From: Tubiluchus corallicola
Taxonomy: Eukaryota > Animalia > Priapulida
NCBI GenBank assembly: GCA_030141605.1
Contig: JAQGDQ010002523.1
Span: 1-9,165 of the forward strand
DNA: 9,165 nucleotides
Direction: 5' to 3'
A program made the position numbers and the translations under genes. Within the stretch, counting starts at the first letter, position 1, and every line of letters starts with the position of its first letter. Shown piece by piece: positions 1-9,165 of this stretch. Below the pieces are notes generated by a model. That model ran no database searches. It was given only the letters and a program-made list of their open reading frames with translations, and was not told the origin of the DNA.

Positions 1-16
1 GAAGCTCTTCAGAATC

Positions 17-328
17 AAACTCGTTCGCTCAGTAATTCGCTCTCTCAAACAGAGCCCATTTTTACGTTTCGCTGCGTTTGAAGTTTTACGAAATTTTAAA
101 TAGGGCGGTCGTATTCTGCTTCGCAGAATTTTAATTTTGCTGTTTCTCTTCTCTCTTTTCTCTTATTAAATCTTTTCTCTTTTATCTCTTATCTTTTCTC
201 TTATTAAATCTTTTCTGTTTTTCTGTCAAAATCCTTTAATGGCGTTTGTATTCTGCTGTGCAGAATTTTAATTTTGCTGTTTTTCTATCAAAAGCTTTTA
301 AGGGCGTTTGTGTTCTGCTATGCAGAAT
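17..328. repeat. Structured intergenic repeat block A: right part of the 141-bp hairpin element plus three 17-bp mini-hairpins and a TC-rich tract
   Basis: 17-106 matches the corresponding part of 1379-1519. ATTCTGC-NNN-GCAGAAT hairpins at 113-129, 250-266 and 312-328 (the last starts GTTCTGC). Confidence 0.9.
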
Positions 329-369
329 TTTAATTTCTATCTGTTCATCGTTCTTTTATCATTTTTTTG

Positions 370-454
370 TGCAGTAGGCGGGACTTGAACCTGCAATGCC
401 TTTCTTGTGTTGTTATTATTTCATAAAGGACTTATATCTTAACCTAGCTACTGC
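370..454 (-). ncRNA. tRNA-like element (pseudo-tRNA or tRNA mimic), copy 1
   Basis: Minus strand reads GCAGTAG/CTACTGC (7-bp acceptor stem) plus discriminator A. T-arm GCAGG-TTCAAGT-CCCGC has one mismatch. Variable region is 4 nt. A 5-bp CCTTT/AAAGG stem closes a 21-nt loop. D-arm is weak and no CCA is encoded. Confidence 0.6.
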
Positions 455-481
455 TTTTTTTTAATTAGGAATTAGTAACTG

Positions 482-1105
482 TTATATGTTGCTAAAGTTG
501 AGTTCTATGTTTTTGTACTCTCCTGTTTTGTTTTTTACCCATATGCGTAGGTATTGTTTTGAGCTTACTACACGTATGGCTTTTTCTATGAGGTCTAAGG
601 CTTGGTGAAATTGTTTGTTTTTTATTTTGACACGGTAACGTAAGAGAGCTGTTATTTTCTTTACGTCCAGCTTGCCACGTGAGGTTTCAAAGGCGTTCAT
701 TACTAGTTGTTTTACTACTTCGTTTTCGGTGCTTATGTTGTTGCTGATGAATTGGTTGAGTAGTTTTTTGGCTTGTTCTATGAGGTTGTCGTCGAAGTCT
801 TGTCTGTCGTTGATGCTTAGCTCTAGTTTTACATCGCGGTTGAAGCTGTAAAGTGTGTAGTTGCCTTTGCGTTGTTCTATGTCTATACCGTTTTCTTTCA
901 TTTCTTCTAAATAGGCGTTTTGGCTTCTGTCCATTACGTATAGTTTGAACTCGCTTAGTTTTTGGGAGAGTTGCAGTGCTTCCTTTACGAATTTGGCGAG
1001 TAGTCGTTCTTTTTTCTTTTCGCTTTTTGTTACTCTTTTTATGGGTATGGGGTTTCCTTGCTCATCTTCCCATATTTTTTCTTTGTTGGTGTGTAGTTTA
1101 ATCAT
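482..1105 (-). CDS. DUF3164-family protein (Mu-like/transposable phage protein), 207 aa, copy 1
   Basis: Motifs WEDEQGNPIP, KGNYTLYSFN, AFETSRGKLD and SKQYLRIW..GEYKNIELNFS resemble DUF3164 as I recall it. Start moved to the ATG at 1105 (MIKLH), which follows the A-rich leader TTAAAAACAAAAATATT. The 65-codon extension in the ORF track runs through repeat DNA. Confidence 0.8.
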   Translation of the reverse strand: MIKLHTNKEKIWEDEQGNPIPIKRVTKSEKKKERLLAKFVKEALQLSQKLSEFKLYVMDRSQNAYLEEMKENGIDIEQRKGNYTLYSFNRDVKLELSINDRQDFDDNLIEQAKKLLNQFISNNISTENEVVKQLVMNAFETSRGKLDVKKITALLRYRVKIKNKQFHQALDLIEKAIRVVSSKQYLRIWVKNKTGEYKNIELNFSNI

Positions 1106-1191
1106 AATATTTTTGTTTTTAAGGTATGATTGAGCTCGCAGGCTCTCTTTCTTATATCCTTTTTTCTTTTTCTTTTTGTCAGTCAAAAAGA

Positions 1192-1300
1192 AGCAACCGA
1201 ACGTAGTGAGCTCGCGAGTTCCTTTGAGTATTTTAGTTGTACGAGCAACCGAACGTAGTGAGCTCGCGAGTTCCTTTGAGTATTTTAGTTGTACGAGCAA
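1192..1300. repeat. Tandem 2 x 52-bp unit bounded by AGCAA
   Basis: AGCAACCGAACGTAGTGAGCTCGCGAGTTCCTTTGAGTATTTTAGTTGTACG at 1192 and 1244, then AGCAA at 1296. Confidence 0.95.
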
Positions 1301-1342
1301 AACTCAAGCCTGTAAATGTTTTTCTTTACGCTCTTTTTTTAT

Positions 1343-1744
1343 GTTCTTTGGCTTGATACAAAAGAGCCAAAAAATCAAGCCTGATTTTAAATTTCTGAAC
1401 TTCTACACTTCGCTACACTAAAATGTGCTAAACTCGTTCGCTCAGTAATTCGCTCTCTCAAACAGAGCCCATTTTTACGTTTCGCTGCGTTTGAAGTTTT
1501 ACGAAATTTTAAATAGGGCGGTCGTATTCTGCTACGCAGAATTTTAATTTTGCTGTTTCTCTTTTATCTTTTCTCTTATTAAATCTTTTCTGTTTTGTTC
1601 TTTTATCTTTTCTCTTATTAAATCTTTTCTGTTTTTCTATCAAAATCCTTTAAGGGCGTTTGTATTCTGCTTCGCAGAATTTTAATTTTGCTGTTTTTCT
1701 ATCAAAATCCTTTAAGGGCGGTATCGTATTCTGCTTCGCAGAAT
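1343..1744. repeat. Structured intergenic repeat block B: pseudoknot-like head (1343-1381), 141-bp hairpin (1379-1519), mini-hairpins
   Basis: GGCTTGAT/ATCAAGCC pairing. Nested inverted repeats AAATTTC/GAAATTT, AACTTC/GAAGTT and AAAATG/CATTTT. Mini-hairpins at 1526, 1664 and 1728. Confidence 0.9.
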
Positions 1745-1786
1745 TATTAATTTCTATCTGTTCATCGTTCTTTTATCATTTTTTTG

Positions 1787-1871
1787 TGCAGTAGGCGGGA
1801 CTTGAACCTGCAATGCCTTTCTTGTGTTGTTATTATTTCATAAAGGACTTATATCTTAACCTAGCTACTGC
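1787..1871 (-). ncRNA. tRNA-like element, copy 2
   Basis: Identical to 370-454. Confidence 0.6.
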
Positions 1872-1898
1872 TTTTTTTTAATTAGGAATTAGTAACTG

Positions 1899-2522
1899 TT
1901 ATATGTTGCTAAAGTTGAGTTCTATGTTTTTGTACTCTCCTGTTTTGTTTTTTACCCATATGCGTAGGTATTGTTTTGAGCTTACTACACGTATGGCTTT
2001 TTCTATGAGGTCTAAGGCTTGGTGAAATTGTTTGTTTTTTATTTTGACACGGTAACGTAAGAGAGCTGTTATTTTCTTTACGTCCAGCTTGCCACGTGAG
2101 GTTTCAAAGGCGTTCATTACTAGTTGTTTTACTACTTCGTTTTCGGTGCTTATGTTGTTGCTGATGAATTGGTTGAGTAGTTTTTTGGCTTGTTCTATGA
2201 GGTTGTCGTCGAAGTCTTGTCTGTCGTTGATGCTTAGCTCTAGTTTTACATCGCGGTTGAAGCTGTAAAGTGTGTAGTTGCCTTTGCGTTGTTCTATGTC
2301 TATACCGTTTTCTTTCATTTCTTCTAAATAGGCGTTTTGGCTTCTGTCCATTACGTATAGTTTGAACTCGCTTAGTTTTTGGGAGAGTTGCAGTGCTTCC
2401 TTTACGAATTTGGCGAGTAGTCGTTCTTTTTTCTTTTCGCTTTTTGTTACTCTTTTTATGGGTATGGGGTTTCCTTGCTCATCTTCCCATATTTTTTCTT
2501 TGTTGGTGTGTAGTTTAATCAT
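1899..2522 (-). CDS. DUF3164-family protein, 207 aa, copy 2
   Basis: Protein identical to copy 1 from the MIKLH start (ATG at 2522). Confidence 0.8.
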   Translation of the reverse strand: MIKLHTNKEKIWEDEQGNPIPIKRVTKSEKKKERLLAKFVKEALQLSQKLSEFKLYVMDRSQNAYLEEMKENGIDIEQRKGNYTLYSFNRDVKLELSINDRQDFDDNLIEQAKKLLNQFISNNISTENEVVKQLVMNAFETSRGKLDVKKITALLRYRVKIKNKQFHQALDLIEKAIRVVSSKQYLRIWVKNKTGEYKNIELNFSNI

Positions 2523-2608
2523 AATATTTTTGTTTTTAAGGTATGATTGAGCTCGCAGGCTCTCTTTCTTATATTCTTTTTTCTTTTTCTTTTTGTCAGT
2601 CAAAAAGA

Positions 2609-2717
2609 AGCAACCGAACGTAGTGAGCTCGCGAGTTCCTTTGAGTATTTTAGTTGTACGAGCAACCGAACGTAGTGAGCTCGCGAGTTCCTTTGAGTAT
2701 TTTAGTTGTACGAGCAA
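2609..2717. repeat. Tandem 2 x 52-bp unit
   Basis: Identical to 1192-1300. Confidence 0.95.
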
Positions 2718-2724
2718 AACTCAA

Positions 2725-2888
2725 GCCTGATTTTAAATTTCTGAACTTCTACACTTCGCTACACTAAAATGTGCTAAACTCGTTCGCTCAGTAATTCGCT
2801 CTCTCAAACAGAGCCCATTTTTACGTTTCGCTGCGTTTGAAGTTTTACGAAATTTTAAATAGGGCGGTCGTATTCTGCTTCGCAGAAT
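2725..2888. repeat. Structured repeat block C: 141-bp hairpin (2725-2865) plus mini-hairpin (2872-2888)
   Basis: Same sequence as 1379-1519, followed by ATTCTGCTTCGCAGAAT. Confidence 0.9.
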
Positions 2889-3003
2889 TGGTAATTTATA
2901 ATTGTCGTCTTTTCTCTTTTGTTCTTTTTTCTCTTCTCTCTTTTATCTTTTATCTCTTATCTTTTCTCTTATTAAATCTTTTCTGTTTTGTTCTTTTTTT
3001 TAT

Positions 3004-3381
3004 GTTCTTTGGCTTGACCCAAAGAACCAAAGGTCAAGCCTGATTTTAAATTTCTGAACTTCTACACTTCGCTACACTAAAATGTGCTAAACTCGTTCGC
3101 TCAGTAATTCGCTCTCTCAAACAGAGCCCATTTTTACGTTTCGCTGCGTTTGAAGTTTTACGAAATTTTAAATAGGGCGGTCGTATTCTGCTTCGCAGAA
3201 TTTTAATTTTGCTGTTTTTCTGTCAAAAGCCTTTAAGGGCGTTTGTATTCTGCTACGCAGAATTTTAATTTTGCTGTTTCTCTTTTATCTTTTCTGTTTT
3301 ATCTTTTCTTTTATCTTATTAAATCTTTTCTGTTTTTCTGTCAAAAGCTTTTAAGGGCGGTCGTATTCTGCTGTGCAGAAT
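3004..3381. repeat. Structured repeat block D: pseudoknot-like head (3004-3040), 141-bp hairpin (3038-3178), mini-hairpins
   Basis: GTTCTTTGG/CCAAAGAAC stem whose loop CTTGAC is complementary to downstream GTCAAG. Mini-hairpins at 3185, 3247 and 3365. Confidence 0.9.
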
Positions 3382-3444
3382 TACTAACTGCTAATTACTA
3401 GTTATTCATTACTGCTTTTTCAATTGTTTTACTTCGTTAAGAAG

Positions 3445-3633
3445 TTTTTCTATTTGTGTTTGTTGTTTTTTTGCTTGTGTTTGTTGTTGTTCTGCCTGTT
3501 TTTTCTGTTGCTCTATCTGTGTTTGTTGTTGTTCTGCCTGTTTTTTCTGTTTTTCTATTTGGGTCTGTTGTTTTTCTATCTGGGTTTGTTGTTTTTCTGC
3601 CTGTTTTTTCTGTTTTTCTATTTGTGTTTGTTG
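3445..3633 (-). repeat. 9 x 21-bp coding heptad repeats (QQTQIEK/QKKQAE[KQ]) forming a coiled coil
   Basis: Read directly from the translation of the 3409-4095 ORF. Confidence 0.9.
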
Positions 3634-4083
3634 TTCTTGTATGGCTTTTATCATCGGGGCTATGAGTTGGTCGTAGGCAAAGCTCATTTCTTGGTGGTTG
3701 ATGTCGGGGTTGTTCACCTCTGTGTCCTTCACCCCTGAAAATTCCATAGGATCTATGAGCTTGAGCATCTCTTGGGCTATTATCCCCCTGTGCCAGCGTT
3801 TGCCTGCCTTGCTCCCCTTGGCGTGTTCCTCTTTATCATACACACGCTCGCCTTTCTCATCTGTTTTGAATACTTCTCTTTCTTCTTCCTCTGCTGCTCC
3901 TTCTCTTTTTTCTTTTACTTTTTCTTTTATCCAATATTGGTCTCTATTGTTGCCTCTCCATTTGCGGGTTTTTATCTGCTTTACAAAGTCCAGTCCCAGC
4001 TCATTATCGGCTATGTCTATCTTATCTCGCTCGTCGGAACTTACCGTGCTGCCATTGCCTAGTTTCACAGTAGTGGAAGATAC

Positions 4084-4502
4084 CCCAAGCACCATAGTGT
4101 AGTTTGCTGATACGTTTGCTTCTCGTCCCAGTGCGGTGGAAGCGCTGCCACTGGCTTTTGCATAGGTTCCCAGTGCGGTGGAAAAGCTGTCACTGGCTTC
4201 TGCACCGTGTCCCAGTGCGGTGGATTGGTTTTTACTGGCGTTTGCATCGTATCCCAGTGCGGCGGAAAGCCGTCAGTGGCTTTTGTACTGTATCCCACTG
4301 CGGTGGACCAGTAGCCACTGGCTTCTGCATGGCGTCCCAGTGCGGTGGAATATTGGCCACTGGCTTCTGCACTATCTCCCAGTGCAGTGGAATTGCTTCC
4401 ACTGGCTTCTGTATGGTATCCCAGTGCGGTGGAATATTTGTCACTGGCTATTGCTTTATATCCCAGTGCGGTGGAATAGGTGCCACTGGCTACTGCATTA
4501 TT
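4084..4502 (-). repeat. 42-bp (14-aa) YadA-head/Hep-Hag-like repeats, 9 clear units plus 1 degenerate
   Basis: TCCCAGTGC-type anchors at 4126, 4168, 4210, 4252, 4293, 4335, 4377, 4419 and 4461. They encode AxASGxxSTALG. Confidence 0.9.
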
Positions 4503-4548
4503 TCCTATTTTCACCTGTGTGGAAGAACTACCCCTTGTGGCATCCCTC

Positions 4549-4967
4549 ACCGCCTTACTGGTGGCTAAGGTGTTGCTGTCGTCAAGTGTGGTGCTGTCGC
4601 TCTTGGCGTTGGGTAGGTTGCTTAGCTTGTCGTATACCGCCTTACTGGTGGCTAAGGTGTTGCTGTCGTTAAGTGTGGTACTGTCGCTCTTGGCGTTGGG
4701 TAGGTTGCTTAGCTTGTCGTGTACCGCCTTACTGGTGGCTAAGGTGTTGCTGTCGTCAAGTGTGGTGCTGTCGCTTTTGGCGTTGGGTAAGTCACTTAGC
4801 TTGTCGTATACCGCCTTACTTGTGGCTAAGGTGTTGCTGTCGTTAAGCGTGGTACTGTCGCTTTTGGCATTGGGTAAGTCACTTAGCTTGTCGTGTACCG
4901 CCTTACTGGTGGCTAAGGTGTTGCTGTCGTTAAGTGTGGTACTGTCGCTCTTGGCGTTGGGTAGGTT
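4549..4967 (-). repeat. 87-bp (29-aa) tail-fibre shaft repeats, about 5 copies
   Basis: CGCCTTACT anchors at 4551, 4638, 4725, 4812 and 4899. The unit LPNAKSDSTTLNDSNTLATSKAVxDKLS resembles the phage fibre motif (S.S..LAATPKAV). Confidence 0.9.
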
Positions 4968-5942
4968 GCCAAGTCCTACTTGAGTTTTTGTTACTTGGTG
5001 TGGGTTGTCGGTTCTGTTCTTGTGGTTGTTGAGCTCGCCTGTTAGCTCGTCTGTCCACTGGTAGGTGTCTTTATCTTTAGCCGTCAGTACTTGTCCGGGG
5101 TTTCCTTTGCTGCCTTTGGAGTCTACTATACTTTCCGACTGCATAGCTCCGTGTATTAGTGTGTCTGTGCCTATCTCTACCTCTGCGGGTACATTGTATT
5201 TGTACACTACCTTACTTGTAGCATCCAATATCCAGTGGTTTTCTCCATCGAAGTATCCATCGCGTATATTGGTGGTTTCCCCTGCTGTGGTAAATGTAAA
5301 CCCTGTGTATACTCCTAAGTTGTTGTATTGATGCACAGACTGGCTGCCTATACCTATTATCCAGTGGTGATTATTTCCCCAATATCCTCCTCTTGCTGCT
5401 ACCGTTTCTGCTGAGGTGCTGAAAGAGTTTCCAGTATAATTTCCTCCTTTGTTGTATTGGTATAGGGTGTTGCTTCCGCAGATAATCCAATGGTTCGTAC
5501 CGTCGAAGTATCCACCTTGTGGAGAGGTGGTTTGGTTGGTTAGTTCGAATGATATACCTAAATACGTGCCGTCACCCATATAAGAGTGAACGCTGTTATC
5601 ACCGCTTATTATCCAGTGAGCAACTCCATCGAAGTACCCACCTTTTGGAGAGGTAGTTTCTGTGGCTACATCAAAGGATATTCCTGTATAGCTACCTTCT
5701 TGTGTGTACTGGTATACTTTGTTGGTATCACTATCTACTATCCATATGTTTGTGCCATCTCCATATATGGCTTGGGGAACACAGTTAACATTGCTTGTTG
5801 TGGTGCTGAATGATATGTCTTTGTAGGATATTTGACCTACTTTGAGTTTTATCATATCGTTTTCTCCTATATGCACGTTGTTGGGTGCGTTAGGTGTAGT
5901 TGTGTTGAAGACTCCGTTGCCTTCTTGGTAAGAATTTGTTGT

Positions 5943-6010
5943 CATAGTTTTTTAGTTTTTAATGGTTATTAATATTATTTTTTGTTCTTTTTTTATGTTC
6001 TTTGGCTTGA
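5943..6010 (-). promoter_or_regulatory. 68-bp leader/translation-initiation region shared with the propeller gene
   Basis: Identical to 7648-7715. Minus strand reads ...AATAATATTAATAACCATTAAAAACTAAAAAACT-ATG, A-rich with no SD. Confidence 0.75.
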
Positions 6011-6350
6011 TACAATTCTTATGCTCTTTTGTCTTGATACAAAAGAGCCAAAAAATCAAGCCTGATTTTAAATTTCTGAACTTCTACACTTCGCTACACT
6101 AAAATGTGCTAAACTCGTTCGCTCAGTAATTCGCTCTCTCAAACAGAGCCCATTTTTACGTTTCGCTGCGTTTGAAGTTTTACGAAATTTTAAATAGGGC
6201 GGTCGTATTCTGCTACGCAGAATTTTAATTTCGCTGTTTTTCTTTTCTGTTTTATCTTTTATCTTTTATCTCTTATCTTTTCTCTTATTAAATCTTTTCT
6301 GTTTTTCTGTCAAAATCCTTTAAGGGCGTTTGTATTCTGTTGCGTAGAAT
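5997..6350. repeat. Structured repeat block E: partial head plus full head (6023-6062), 141-bp hairpin (6060-6200), mini-hairpins
   Basis: GCTCTTTTGT/ACAAAAGAGC stem whose loop CTTGAT is complementary to downstream ATCAAG. Mini-hairpins at 6207 and 6334. Confidence 0.9.
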
Positions 6351-6360
6351 TAGTAGTTTT

Positions 6361-6405
6361 TTTGTCTTCCCCCGCCCTTCGGGAGGAAGGTGCAGGGGGG
6401 ACAAA
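6361..6405. repeat. GC-rich REP-like imperfect palindrome
   Basis: TTTGTC/GACAAA outer arms, CTTCC/GGAAG, and a CCC-TTC-GGG apex. It is a lone GC island in AT-rich DNA. Confidence 0.5.
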
Positions 6406-6486
6406 TTTTTCTTTTAGTGGTGTTTGTTGTTTTATATTTCCCTATAATTGACCTATATTACCAGTACCGTCTGAATTATTTTCATA

Positions 6487-7650
6487 CTATTTTTCTCTTA
6501 GGTAGTAGTTGTCGTCTGTCAGTTCCCATATTTCGCCATTGGTATTGCTGTGTAGTACTCTTCCGTTGAAGGTTTCGGGTGTTAGGGTTTCGTTTACTTC
6601 TATAGTGTTGTCGTCTACTACTTTTTTTATGGTGTATTCTCCATCGTTTTGGCAGCTGTACTCTATTCTTATTTTTTTATCTGCTACTTGTAGCTTGCCT
6701 AGTATGTTGTTGGCATTGTTATCTATTATCTGATTGCCTGTGCTTAAGTTCCATACTGTTACTCCTGTTGAGCTATCATCTGATGATACGTATGCTTTAT
6801 TTCCTTCAATCCATATGCCATGAGGATTAACAAGCACCCCCTCACCAAATTCTTCGTTAGTAAGTCTTATAGGATTGGTAGGGTTGCTAATGTCCCATAC
6901 GTTTACCAATTCTGACCCAGCGTTTACTACGTAGGCTTTGCTATTTGCTATCCTTATTACTCTTGGTCCATCTAATACCCCACTTCCAAATTCTTCGTTG
7001 GTCAATCGTTGGGGGCTGGTAGGGTTGGATACATCCCATACGGTTACAAGGTTTAAGTATGCGTCTGTTACATACATTTTATTTCCTTCTTTGAACATAC
7101 GAGTTGGAGAGCTAAATACTCCTTGTCCAAATTCTTGATTGGTTTGTCTTACAGGGTTGGTGGGGTTGGATACATCCCATACAGTCATATGTTCAAATTT
7201 ATCAGTTACATATAGAGTATCTCCATCCTTCCATATTCCACGTGGTACGAGTAGGTCTATTTCTTGATTGGTTTGTCTAGTAGGGTTTTTAGGGTCTGAT
7301 ACATCCCATACCGTTACTTTACTAAGCCTAGAATCTCCTGCATAGATGGTATTGCCATCTTTCCAAATACTTCCTGATAAGCCTGTAAACACTCCCATCC
7401 CAAAATCTTCGTCCAGAAGTCGTAGGGGGTTGGTGGGATTGCTAATGTCCCACACACTTATAAAGTCTTGGATGAAAACTGATAGGTACATTTTATTACC
7501 CTCTATCCACATATATCTAGGGTATTCAATTTCACTATCTGCTATTGTTTCTTCAGGTATTAGAGTAGCACCACTACTATTGCTGTTTATAGTATAGTTG
7601 CTTTCTAATTGGTCAAGGAAATCGCCTTGTGTTACTGGTGTTGTTGCCAT
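6487..7650 (-). CDS. LVIVD-like repeat beta-propeller protein (6 blades), 387 aa, possibly phage structural or receptor-binding
   Basis: Six ~44-48-aa repeats of PxxIWxxGNxxYV...VTVWDVSNPTNP (nt 6742-7521). No obvious signal peptide. Short C-terminal beta-rich domain NDGEYTIKKVVDDNTIEVNE. Confidence 0.8.
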   Translation of the reverse strand: MATTPVTQGDFLDQLESNYTINSNSSGATLIPEETIADSEIEYPRYMWIEGNKMYLSVFIQDFISVWDISNPTNPLRLLDEDFGMGVFTGLSGSIWKDGNTIYAGDSRLSKVTVWDVSDPKNPTRQTNQEIDLLVPRGIWKDGDTLYVTDKFEHMTVWDVSNPTNPVRQTNQEFGQGVFSSPTRMFKEGNKMYVTDAYLNLVTVWDVSNPTSPQRLTNEEFGSGVLDGPRVIRIANSKAYVVNAGSELVNVWDISNPTNPIRLTNEEFGEGVLVNPHGIWIEGNKAYVSSDDSSTGVTVWNLSTGNQIIDNNANNILGKLQVADKKIRIEYSCQNDGEYTIKKVVDDNTIEVNETLTPETFNGRVLHSNTNGEIWELTDDNYYLREK

Positions 7651-7715
7651 AGTTTTTTAGTTTTTAATGGTTATTAATATTATTTTTTGTTCTTTTTTTA
7701 TGTTCTTTGGCTTGA
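7648..7715 (-). promoter_or_regulatory. 68-bp leader shared with the tail-fibre gene
   Basis: Identical to 5943-6010. Confidence 0.75.
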
Positions 7716-8184
7716 CCCAAAGAACATAAGGTCAAGCCTGTAAATGTTTTTTTCTTGTTCTTTTTCTTCTTCTTTTTGTCAGTCAAAAAGAAGCAACCGA
7801 GCGAAGCGAGCTCGCGAGTGCCTTTAAGTATTTTAGTTGTACGAGCAAAAACCTCCCGCTGAATAAAAATTACGCTACCCTTTTTCGCTACTGAGAGAAG
7901 ATTTTAAACTCGCCTGCGGCTCAAACAGAAAATCTTCTTTTTTCTCCTTCGCTACAAAGGGCTTAACGCTATTTTTATTAGGCGGTATCGTATTCTGCTT
8001 CGCAGAATTTTAATTTTTCTGTTTCTCTTTTATCTTTTCTGTTTTATCTTTTCTCTTATTAAATCTTTCGCTGTTTTTCTGTCAAAAGCCTTTAAGGGCG
8101 GTCGTATTCTGCTTCGCAGAATTTTAATTTTTCTGTTTTTCTATCAAAAGCTTTTAAGGGCGTTTGTATTCTGTTGCGTAGAAT
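7699..8184. repeat. Structured repeat block F: head (7699-7738), second hairpin head, single variant 52-bp unit (7792-7848), divergent long hairpin (7856-7985), mini-hairpins
   Basis: Stems TATGTTCTTTGG/CCAAAGAACATA, CCGC/GCGG, AATAAAAAT/ATTTTTATT, CCCTTT/AAAGGG and GAAGATTTT/AAAATCTTC. Mini-hairpins at 7992, 8106 and 8168. Confidence 0.85.
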
Positions 8185-8226
8185 TACTAATTACTATCTG
8201 TTCATCGTTCTTTTATCATTTTTTTG

Positions 8227-8311
8227 TGCAGTAGGCGGGACTTGAACCTGCAATGCCTTTCTTGTGTTGTTATTATTTCATAAAGGACTTATATCTTAAC
8301 CTAGCTACTGC
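8227..8311 (-). ncRNA. tRNA-like element, copy 3
   Basis: Identical to 370-454. Confidence 0.6.
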
Positions 8312-8338
8312 TTTTTTTTAATTAGGAATTAGTAACTG

Positions 8339-8962
8339 TTATATGTTGCTAAAGTTGAGTTCTATGTTTTTGTACTCTCCTGTTTTGTTTTTTACCCATA
8401 TGCGTAGGTATTGTTTTGAGCTTACTACACGTATGGCTTTTTCTATGAGGTCTAAGGCTTGGTGAAATTGTTTGTTTTTTATTTTGACACGGTAACGTAA
8501 GAGAGCTGTTATTTTCTTTACGTCCAGCTTGCCACGTGAGGTTTCAAAGGCGTTCATTACTAGTTGTTTTACTACTTCGTTTTCGGTGCTTATGTTGTTG
8601 CTGATGAATTGGTTGAGTAGTTTTTTGGCTTGTTCTATGAGGTTGTCGTCGAAGTCTTGTCTGTCGTTGATGCTTAGCTCTAGTTTTACATCGCGGTTGA
8701 AGCTGTAAAGTGTGTAGTTGCCTTTGCGTTGTTCTATGTCTATACCGTTTTCTTTCATTTCTTCCAAATAGGCGTTTTGGCTTCTGTCCATTACGTATAG
8801 TTTGAACTCGCTTAGTTTTTGGGAGAGTTGCAGTGCTTCCTTTACGAATTTGGCGAGTAGTCGTTCTTTTTTCTTTTCGCTTTTTGTTACTCTTTTTATG
8901 GGTATGGGGTTTCCTTGCTCATCTTCCCATATTTTTTCTTTGTTGGTGTGTAGTTTAATCAT
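8339..8962 (-). CDS. DUF3164-family protein, 207 aa, copy 3
   Basis: Same protein as copies 1 and 2, with one synonymous change (Leu TTA>TTG, position 8765). Confidence 0.8.
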   Translation of the reverse strand: MIKLHTNKEKIWEDEQGNPIPIKRVTKSEKKKERLLAKFVKEALQLSQKLSEFKLYVMDRSQNAYLEEMKENGIDIEQRKGNYTLYSFNRDVKLELSINDRQDFDDNLIEQAKKLLNQFISNNISTENEVVKQLVMNAFETSRGKLDVKKITALLRYRVKIKNKQFHQALDLIEKAIRVVSSKQYLRIWVKNKTGEYKNIELNFSNI

Positions 8963-9048
8963 AATATTTTTGTTTTTAAGGTATGATTGAGCTCGCAGGC
9001 TCTCTTTCTTATATTCTTTTTTCTTTTTCTTTTTGTCAGTCAAAAAGA

Positions 9049-9157
9049 AGCAACCGAACGTAGTGAGCTCGCGAGTTCCTTTGAGTATTTTAGTTGTACG
9101 AGCAACCGAACGTAGTGAGCTCGCGAGTTCCTTTGAGTATTTTAGTTGTACGAGCAA
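9049..9157. repeat. Tandem 2 x 52-bp unit
   Basis: Identical to 1192-1300. Confidence 0.95.
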
Positions 9158-9165
9158 AGGTCAAG

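What the first reader, a model, noticed from the sequence alone, without database searches (positions are those of the whole stretch)
1..9165. Cassette-like array of single phage-derived genes, each bounded by the same modular structured repeat
Seen: five co-oriented genes, none directly adjacent to another. Each gene unit ends 3' at an ATTCTG..AGAAT hairpin (328, 1744, 3381, 6350, 8184) and begins 5' next to a hairpin or pseudoknot head. One unit occurs three times, in non-adjacent positions. Established: phage genes normally sit in tight operons, and in Mu-like phages DUF3164 genes lie in the early region away from tail genes. Inference: genes may be captured, copied and shuffled as cassettes using these repeats as sites, like an integron but without attC. 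No enzyme is encoded in the window.
Basis: partly seen in the sequence, partly recalled or inferred. Interest (0 to 1): 0.8.

Follow-up and report, generated by a model that had tools for sequence, protein, structure and literature searches.

The report
Folded repeats flanking reshuffled phage genes
Five phage-type genes, one of them present three times, each sit between copies of a repeat that is predicted to fold and that also occurs scattered through many Bacteroidota genomes; the genes were likely copied and re-ordered by ordinary recombination at these repeats, and no dedicated capture enzyme was found.

Summary
The array is real as described. Five co-oriented genes are separated by 540-880-bp mosaic spacers: three near-identical DUF3164 units cut from a Mu-like phage early region, a tail-fibre-type gene and an LVIVD gene that shares its 5' end. 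Each spacer holds a pseudoknot cap, a long rod hairpin (159 bp identical in four copies) and 17-bp mini-hairpins. Cap and rod belong to a family I did not find in Rfam or in print; this scan noted it before on other DNA (e1-2131078). The cap pattern occurs in 66 of 401 sampled Bacteroidota genomes, where it behaves like a REP/BIME-type intergenic repeat. In one prophage, co-oriented pairs bracket genes that a relative lacks. Contigs from two studies hold the units in several alleles, with other neighbours. There are no attC boxes, and no Y1, integrase or RT gene lay beside the repeat. Cargo is only two gene families. Best reading (0.5): the repeats colonised prophage gene borders and recombination duplicated and re-ordered the units, as with T4 PeSLs. 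A dedicated single-strand cassette system stays open (0.22), because unit borders are sharper than simple crossing-over predicts.

The parts
1..330 (.). Spacer S0: right arm of a rod (17-108), three mini-hairpins (113, 250, 312) and a CT-rich block; the first 16 bases differ from the other rods
331..1312 (-). DUF3164 unit, copy 1: 3' stub, tRNA-like sequence, gene, 5' UTR, cap hairpin (1170-1193) with two 52-bp inserts, cap end
369..454 (-). tRNA-like sequence after DUF3164 (acceptor stem and T-arm, enlarged anticodon loop); also at 1786-1871 and 8226-8311; not called by ARAGORN or Rfam
   Evidence: read from the sequence; negative; T-arm within 260 nt of the gene in 8 of 89 related loci
482..1105 (-). 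DUF3164 gene (PF11363, phrog_846), Mu-like phage early gene, 207 aa, no clear structural match
1338..1381 (.). Pseudoknot cap (others at 2999-3040, 5992-6062 doubled, 7697-7738)
   Evidence: covariation in relatives
1375..1521 (.). Rod hairpin, identical over at least 159 bp at 1375, 2721, 3034 and 6056
1522..1747 (.). Mini-hairpin modules (1526, 1664, 1728) with CT-rich block, rest of spacer S1
1748..2729 (-). DUF3164 unit, copy 2 (gene 1899-2522); one substitution against copy 1
2718..3383 (.). Spacer S2: two rods, one cap between them, four mini-hairpins; the first rod-to-cap interval holds no gene
3409..5945 (-). Tail-fibre-type gene: N-terminal head, 87-bp stalk repeats, YadA head repeats, S74 chaperone, coiled coil; one base missing between 4253 and 4294, likely a sequencing error
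   Evidence: an X1 contig has 448 letters over 4045-4491 with one gap
5946..6352 (.). Spacer S3: 5' UTR, doubled cap, rod, two mini-hairpins
6487..7650 (-). LVIVD-repeat gene, 387 aa; same 5' UTR and start as the fibre gene; joined in frame to the fibre stalk in one X1 contig
   Evidence: (joint 5024 to 6494, 25 letters between)
7651..8187 (.). Spacer S4: 5' UTR, two caps, one 52-bp insert, a second rod of different sequence but the same architecture (7855-7985), three mini-hairpins
   Evidence: (z -5.0 to -5.3 on the minus strand)
8188..9165 (-). DUF3164 unit, copy 3 (gene 8339-8962), running to the window's end inside the cap

Best explanation
This array of phage-derived gene units, each between copies of a repeat predicted to fold as single-stranded DNA, likely belongs to a Bacteroidota bacterium and was likely built by ordinary recombination at the repeats rather than by a dedicated capture enzyme. 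Step 1 (shown in other genomes, inferred here): a REP-like repeat made of a pseudoknot cap, a variable rod and mini-hairpins spreads into intergenic sites, including those of prophages; what moves it is unknown. Step 2 (inferred): copies on both sides of a prophage gene turn that gene into a unit. Step 3 (inferred): crossing-over and conversion between co-oriented copies, at the 159-bp identical rods, the 45-60-bp hairpin modules and shorter homologies, delete the rest of the prophage, duplicate units and re-order them, as PeSL repeats do in T4-type phages. Step 4 (shown in contigs): the result is a family of DUF3164 and fibre alleles with exchanged heads and neighbours. The array may serve as a store of fibre variants; that is untested.
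For: The repeat is a widespread dispersed family: cap pattern in 66 of 401 sampled Bacteroidota genomes, reversed control 0; apex model in 10 of 151. It lies between housekeeping genes, singly or in tandem. Of 87 genomic copies scored, 52 lie between co-oriented genes, 20 between convergent and 4 between divergent genes; 11 could not be classed. It inserts between phage structural genes (L250, L248, L257). Prophage G410 has 7 co-oriented copies, and two pairs bracket one and two genes absent at the same places in relative G411. The window offers long perfect homology. No enzyme lay beside the cap in 45 Y1, 24 integrase and 7 RT loci; 1 of 30 GIY-YIG loci had one. Cargo is limited to two families. 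X1 shows joints at CT-rich sequence without a hairpin (199 to 8211) and inside genes (5024 to 6494).
Against: The 200 bp beside the 3' ends of the three DUF3164 units are only 80-89% alike while the units are 99.7-99.9% alike, and each copy is joined to a different last hairpin with at most about 10 shared bases to the right of the loop. A plain rod-to-rod duplication would have copied the flank too, so later conversion must be assumed. Switches on the other side fall repeatedly at the cap end, and rods are swapped behind a constant cap in other genomes (G148, G248). None of the 20 cluster regions fetched from other genomes held a comparable array. The host genome is not available, so an enzyme beside the array cannot be excluded.
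Confidence: 0.5

Rival explanations
1. A dedicated cassette system: an enzyme acting in trans on folded single-stranded DNA (HUH-like or integrase-like) cuts at the mini-hairpin foot and at the cap end, excises single genes and re-inserts them in the array.
For: Sharp borders with little shared sequence. Covarying structure: apex stem covariation 0.545 against 0.186 in shuffles, 0 of 500; cap loop length follows the A-tract length, rho 0.52 over 59 distinct caps. GNA-type loops in 10 of 15 mini-hairpins on the gene strand. In X1 the depth of the rod (414.8) is close to the summed depths of DUF3164, fibre end and LVIVD end (180.4 + 184.5 + 53.7), as if one rod went with each unit. TnpA-REP cleaves and recombines BIMEs in vitro (PMC3333891, abstract).
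Against: No enzyme found. Two cargo families only. In other genomes the repeat has no fixed polarity to genes and forms no such arrays. The depth sum does not match in X4 (rod 35), and the tool warns that contig depth is no copy number.
Confidence: 0.22
2. The order in the window is an assembly artefact: repeat-rich bacterial reads at low depth in an animal assembly were stitched at the identical rods and units.
For: No laid contig spans the window; X1 holds only 0.63 of its words. One apparent base error in the fibre gene. Earlier notes describe the rest of this assembly as an invertebrate.
Against: All five spacers differ and the three units carry private substitutions. The unit-to-repeat junctions and multi-allele state are in contigs of two studies. 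An artefact could change the order but not the unit-and-spacer anatomy.
Confidence: 0.1
3. Bacterial and phage DNA was inserted into the animal's own chromosomes and scrambled and amplified there.
For: The window comes with an assembly that earlier notes call animal. Runs under one species label hold many alleles. One X2 LVIVD allele lacks a base at 6622.
Against: Four of five reading frames are intact. A run of another study with the same species label holds next to none of the words (no proof of absence), while an unlabelled run of a second study holds exact rod and gene pieces.
Confidence: 0.08
4. Units are retro-copies: a reverse transcriptase starts at the 3' pseudoknot of a transcript and the copy is inserted at another repeat.
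For: Units are single genes with short UTRs, all in one orientation, with a pseudoknot at the transcript's 3' side. RT-like ORFs lie just upstream of a cap in L062 and L291 (read by eye).
Against: No RT match in G109 and G212, which hold 14 and 8 caps; 0 of 7 RT loci carry a cap. No Rfam family reaches its threshold.
Confidence: 0.05

Closest known systems
PeSL cassettes of T4-type phages RB49 and phi1 (PMC2839356; abstract and Discussion read)
   Same: Composite stem-loop repeats bound single genes and are proposed as homologous-recombination sites for gain, loss and exchange, with no integrase found.
   Different: PeSLs carry a promoter; no Bacteroidota-type promoter match lies on the gene strand in these spacers. 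The repeat here is a 250-800-bp mosaic that is a host-genome repeat family, and one unit is multiplied.
REP/BIME/REPIN repeats and TnpA-REP (PMC6006769, passages, section 12 and part of Table S1 read; PMC3333891, abstract)
   Same: Intergenic, multi-copy, mosaic, hairpin-forming repeats that avoid divergent gene pairs; short hairpins with 3-nt loops resemble subclass 2.6 repeats of Bacteroidetes in size.
   Different: No GTAG-type foot, a pseudoknot cap and a long variable rod, no match to the table's sequences for the four motifs searched, and no Y1 gene flanked by the cap in 45 loci.
Integron gene-cassette arrays (defining features from my own knowledge)
   Same: Co-oriented single genes, each with a long imperfect hairpin on its 3' side.
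   Different: No attC core boxes, no intI, low cargo diversity, spacers of 400-670 bp.
Mu-like transposable phages of Bacteroidetes, fF4 type (PMC7761591, passages read)
   Same: DUF3164 follows the transposase and ATPase genes there; a tRNA or tRNA-like sequence follows DUF3164 in some relatives.
   Different: Here the gene stands alone, repeated, between repeats; the fibre had no match in 5 of 5 DUF3164 phages searched.

Membership tests
Integron cassette array | attC with paired core boxes RYYYAAC and GTTRRRY (recalled consensus) | tested here: not met
   No pair in any of 5 spacers on either strand; two single half-boxes in S4
Integron cassette array | IntI gene and attI at the array head | tested here: inconclusive
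   None in the window; flanks not available; 0 of 24 integrase loci in 5 cap-bearing genomes carry the repeat
REP/BIME with TnpA-REP | Multi-copy intergenic hairpins in mosaic clusters | tested here: met
REP/BIME with TnpA-REP | GT[AG]G tetranucleotide at the hairpin foot | tested here: not met
   Read from the sequence at the hairpin feet; subclass 2.6 repeats also lack it (PMC6006769 section 12)
REP/BIME with TnpA-REP | Cognate Y1 gene flanked by the repeat | tested here: inconclusive
   0 of 45 Y1 loci fetched (of 50 matches listed) from 9 cap-bearing genomes; host genome not held
PeSL cassette | Promoter plus stem-loop in each repeat, directed into the gene | tested here: not met
   The recalled Bacteroidota -7 motif occurs in spacers only on the strand opposite to the genes; stem-loops are present
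PeSL cassette | Genes gained or lost between repeats in relatives | tested here: met
   For the repeat family in prophage G410 against G411; for this array only as alternative joints in contigs
PeSL cassette | Excised mini-circles | not testable with these tools
   Only contigs, no raw or long reads
MITE | Terminal inverted repeats and target-site duplication | tested here: inconclusive
   The cap lies outside the rod's inverted arms and copies end raggedly in other repeats; no clean empty-site pair was analysed
IS200/IS605 end or TnpB guide RNA | Match to a known RNA family, tnpA or tnpB adjacent | tested here: not met
   No Rfam match at gathering score in the window or 13 loci; no such ORF in the window
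Mu-like prophage | DDE transposase, B ATPase and morphogenesis operon around DUF3164 | tested here: not met
   Absent from the window; only the DUF3164 and tRNA-like piece is kept

The most novel reading that the evidence does not exclude
An undescribed cassette system of Bacteroidota: single genes are excised and re-joined on single-stranded DNA at a pseudoknot-capped, triple-helix-forming repeat by an unidentified enzyme, building an integron-like array of some twenty or more phage fibre and DUF3164 alleles without attC or IntI.
Probability: 0.22. Interest if true: 0.85.

Novelty: new variant of a known kind. Interest (0 to 1): 0.52.

Why it matters
The repeat family is common in Bacteroidota (at least 66 of 401 sampled genomes), its structure is kept by compensating changes, and neither its mover nor its role is known. 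This locus and prophage G410 show that it can bound gene units that are gained, lost and multiplied, so it may be a general route to gene shuffling in this phylum. If the sharp junctions come from an enzyme, it would be a second integron-like design and a new single-strand recombination chemistry; the spacers give ready substrates to test that.

Tried and rejected
No genome is held for the window. The spacer had no blastn match in the phage or plasmid collections. A loose apex pattern in viral contigs was mostly noise: 3 of 80 loci passed the model at E 0.05. The four distinct proteins looked up are not in the collection letter for letter. No RNA holder was listed. The DUF3164 model (pLDDT 84) had no clear fold match: no Foldseek hit at E 0.001, best Z 7.5 on a helical bundle, so a Gam-like role is untested. 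Replication-strand bias: in G109 13 of 14 caps switch strand near mid-contig, but GC skew in 20 windows did not define the replichores and 20 of 32 locus-strand pairs had positive skew; left open. Which strand folds is mixed: GNA loops, purine-rich internal loops and folding energies favour the gene strand, while a few G.T pairs favour the other; the 141 rod itself folds only modestly (z -2.0 to -2.2, and 0 to -0.9 on the plus strand). A loose-pattern cap hit in L324 was inside an ORF and was dropped. Five of 94 DUF3164 loci had no tblastn hit and were left out of the count of 89.
Full report
Anatomy. The window holds five genes on the minus strand, 541-883 bp apart. Three are DUF3164 (PF11363, E 4e-35), each in a 970-bp block that differs by 1-3 substitutions between copies. 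One is a tail-fibre-type gene with stalk repeats, YadA head repeats and an S74 chaperone; one 42-bp repeat is 41 bp long and shifts the frame, and an X1 contig over this stretch has one extra letter, so it is likely an error. The fifth is an LVIVD-repeat gene with the same 5' UTR and start as the fibre gene. The spacers are mosaics of a cap, a rod, mini-hairpin modules, CT-rich blocks and a 52-bp insert. The mini-hairpin has 14 exact matches against none by chance. Four rods are identical over at least 159 bp; a fifth full rod has another sequence but the same shape.

Origin of the cargo. Closest DUF3164 proteins are 35-49% identical, one named from Bacteroidia. In fF4-like Mu-type prophages DUF3164 follows the transposase and ATPase genes (PMC7761591, passages read). 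Of 94 related loci from viral contigs and genomes, 89 gave a tblastn hit; none had two copies, and 8 of the 89 had a tRNA T-arm within 260 nt downstream, as the window's units do. None of the 94 carried the cap. So the unit is a piece of a Mu-like early region out of its setting. The fibre found no match in five of these phages, so a common source phage is not shown. Earlier notes describe the other pieces of this assembly as an invertebrate (not checked by me); the window is likely a co-assembled bacterium, its phylum inferred from the proteins and the repeat.

The repeat is a family. The rod apex led to the same cap-plus-rod layout in a viral contig and in Bacteroidota genomes. On 11 apex sequences, 9 of 11 pairs show changes on both sides, with a covariation score of 0.545 against 0.186 in shuffles; sliding by one column gave 0.488, so the register varies, and four rows come from one genome. 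A cap pattern hit 66 of 401 sampled genomes with a reversed control of 0 and 30 viral stretches (some are chance). The two pseudoknot strands covary. The loop length follows the A-tract length (rho 0.52, 59 distinct caps, related sequences not corrected), which fits a pyrimidine triple helix on the gene strand or an alternative pairing; this is a prediction. No Rfam family reached its threshold, and literature searches (listings only) showed no description; subscription papers are not covered. A search of the two supplements of PMC6006769 for four motifs found no matching repeat (part 5 of 7 of the table read). This scan had noted the same family elsewhere (e1-2131078).

How it behaves elsewhere. 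It sits between housekeeping genes, singly or in tandem, with no fixed polarity but few divergent pairs. None of 20 cluster regions fetched held an array like this one. In phage contigs it lies between structural genes. Prophage G410 has seven co-oriented copies in 29.5 kb; between genes that are neighbours in relative G411 it has inserted stretches, and two pairs of copies bracket one gene and two genes that G411 lacks there. Those spacers also contain other REP-type repeats and the prophage has a GIY-YIG gene, so the repeat responsible is not settled. No mover was found: the cap lay in 0 of 45 Y1, 0 of 24 integrase, 0 of 7 RT and 1 of 30 GIY-YIG loci, each with 1.5 kb of flank.

Other samples. 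Three runs of one sample and one run of a second study hold the stretch as contigs. They show several alleles of each gene, a DUF3164 allele with another 5' UTR, other rods behind the cap, other sequences before it, a hairpin that precedes DUF3164 here joined to a fibre end, and an LVIVD head joined in frame to the fibre stalk (I checked the frame by hand). In X1 the rod interior is one contig at depth 414.8, while the rarest variants lie at 15-21; DUF3164, fibre end and LVIVD end lie at 180.4, 184.5 and 53.7. Taken at face value this means some twenty units with about one rod each, and several times more caps and mini-hairpins elsewhere. The tool warns that contig depth is no copy number, the tables were cut, X1 may be the source sample, and the sum does not hold in X4. 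These joints could also be other places in a longer array rather than rearrangements.

Mechanism. The best reading is repeat colonisation followed by recombination, as proposed for PeSLs (PMC2839356, abstract and Discussion read): the repeat is dispersed in other genomes, long perfect homology is present, cargo is narrow, and some joints fall outside hairpins. The main fact against it is that the flanks of the three near-identical units are only 80-89% alike and each unit meets a different last hairpin. That fits an enzyme cutting at the hairpin foot, as TnpA-REP recombines BIMEs in vitro (PMC3333891, abstract only), or frequent conversion among the many hairpin copies. It works like a PeSL or BIME system; it is not an integron, not a PeSL in the strict sense, and not shown to be a REPtron.

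Verdict. Observation confirmed, interpretation partly supported, new variant of a known kind, interest 0.52. The host genome and long reads, which I could not obtain, decide between the two leading readings.

Noticed in passing
G109:C1: 13 of 14 caps switch strand near the middle of this 3.9-Mb contig, and G148 has 18 forward and 0 reverse; a link to replication direction is possible, but GC skew did not confirm it.
   Followed up: partly
L252 2903-11836 and L264 7990-8834 (prophage G410): Prophage loaded with seven caps, other REP-type repeats, a GIY-YIG gene and many small membrane or lipoprotein genes absent from a relative; a second natural case worth its own study.
   Followed up: partly
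L287-L289 (G148), L292 (G248): One constant cap is followed by three or more unrelated rods within one genome; G148 has the same rod-base sequence as the window.
   Followed up: partly
window 1194-1297, 2611-2714, 7794-7845, 9051-9154: A 52-bp unit is inserted once or twice inside the cap's loop region; small inserts in the cap loop also occur in L054 and L066.
   Followed up: no
L291 2692-4597 and 14157-15031; L062 2-1500: ORFs that look like group II intron RT or maturase end a few hundred bases before a cap in three places (read by eye, not scanned).
   Followed up: no
L072-L088 (G042:C19:516155-517895): Five GIY-YIG matches with the same score in tandem at 382-bp spacing.
   Followed up: no
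window 6352-6410: A different GC-rich hairpin in the 3' UTR of the LVIVD gene, with variants in X1.
   Followed up: no
window 1415, 2761, 3074, 6096, 7877-7971 (minus strand): All eight matches to a hexamer recalled from single-strand plasmid origins lie in rods on the gene strand, none on the other strand; may only reflect the G.A-rich loops.
   Followed up: no
L005, L013, L015-L020 (G072): Here the elements come as inverted pairs with short rods, like REP doublets.
   Followed up: no
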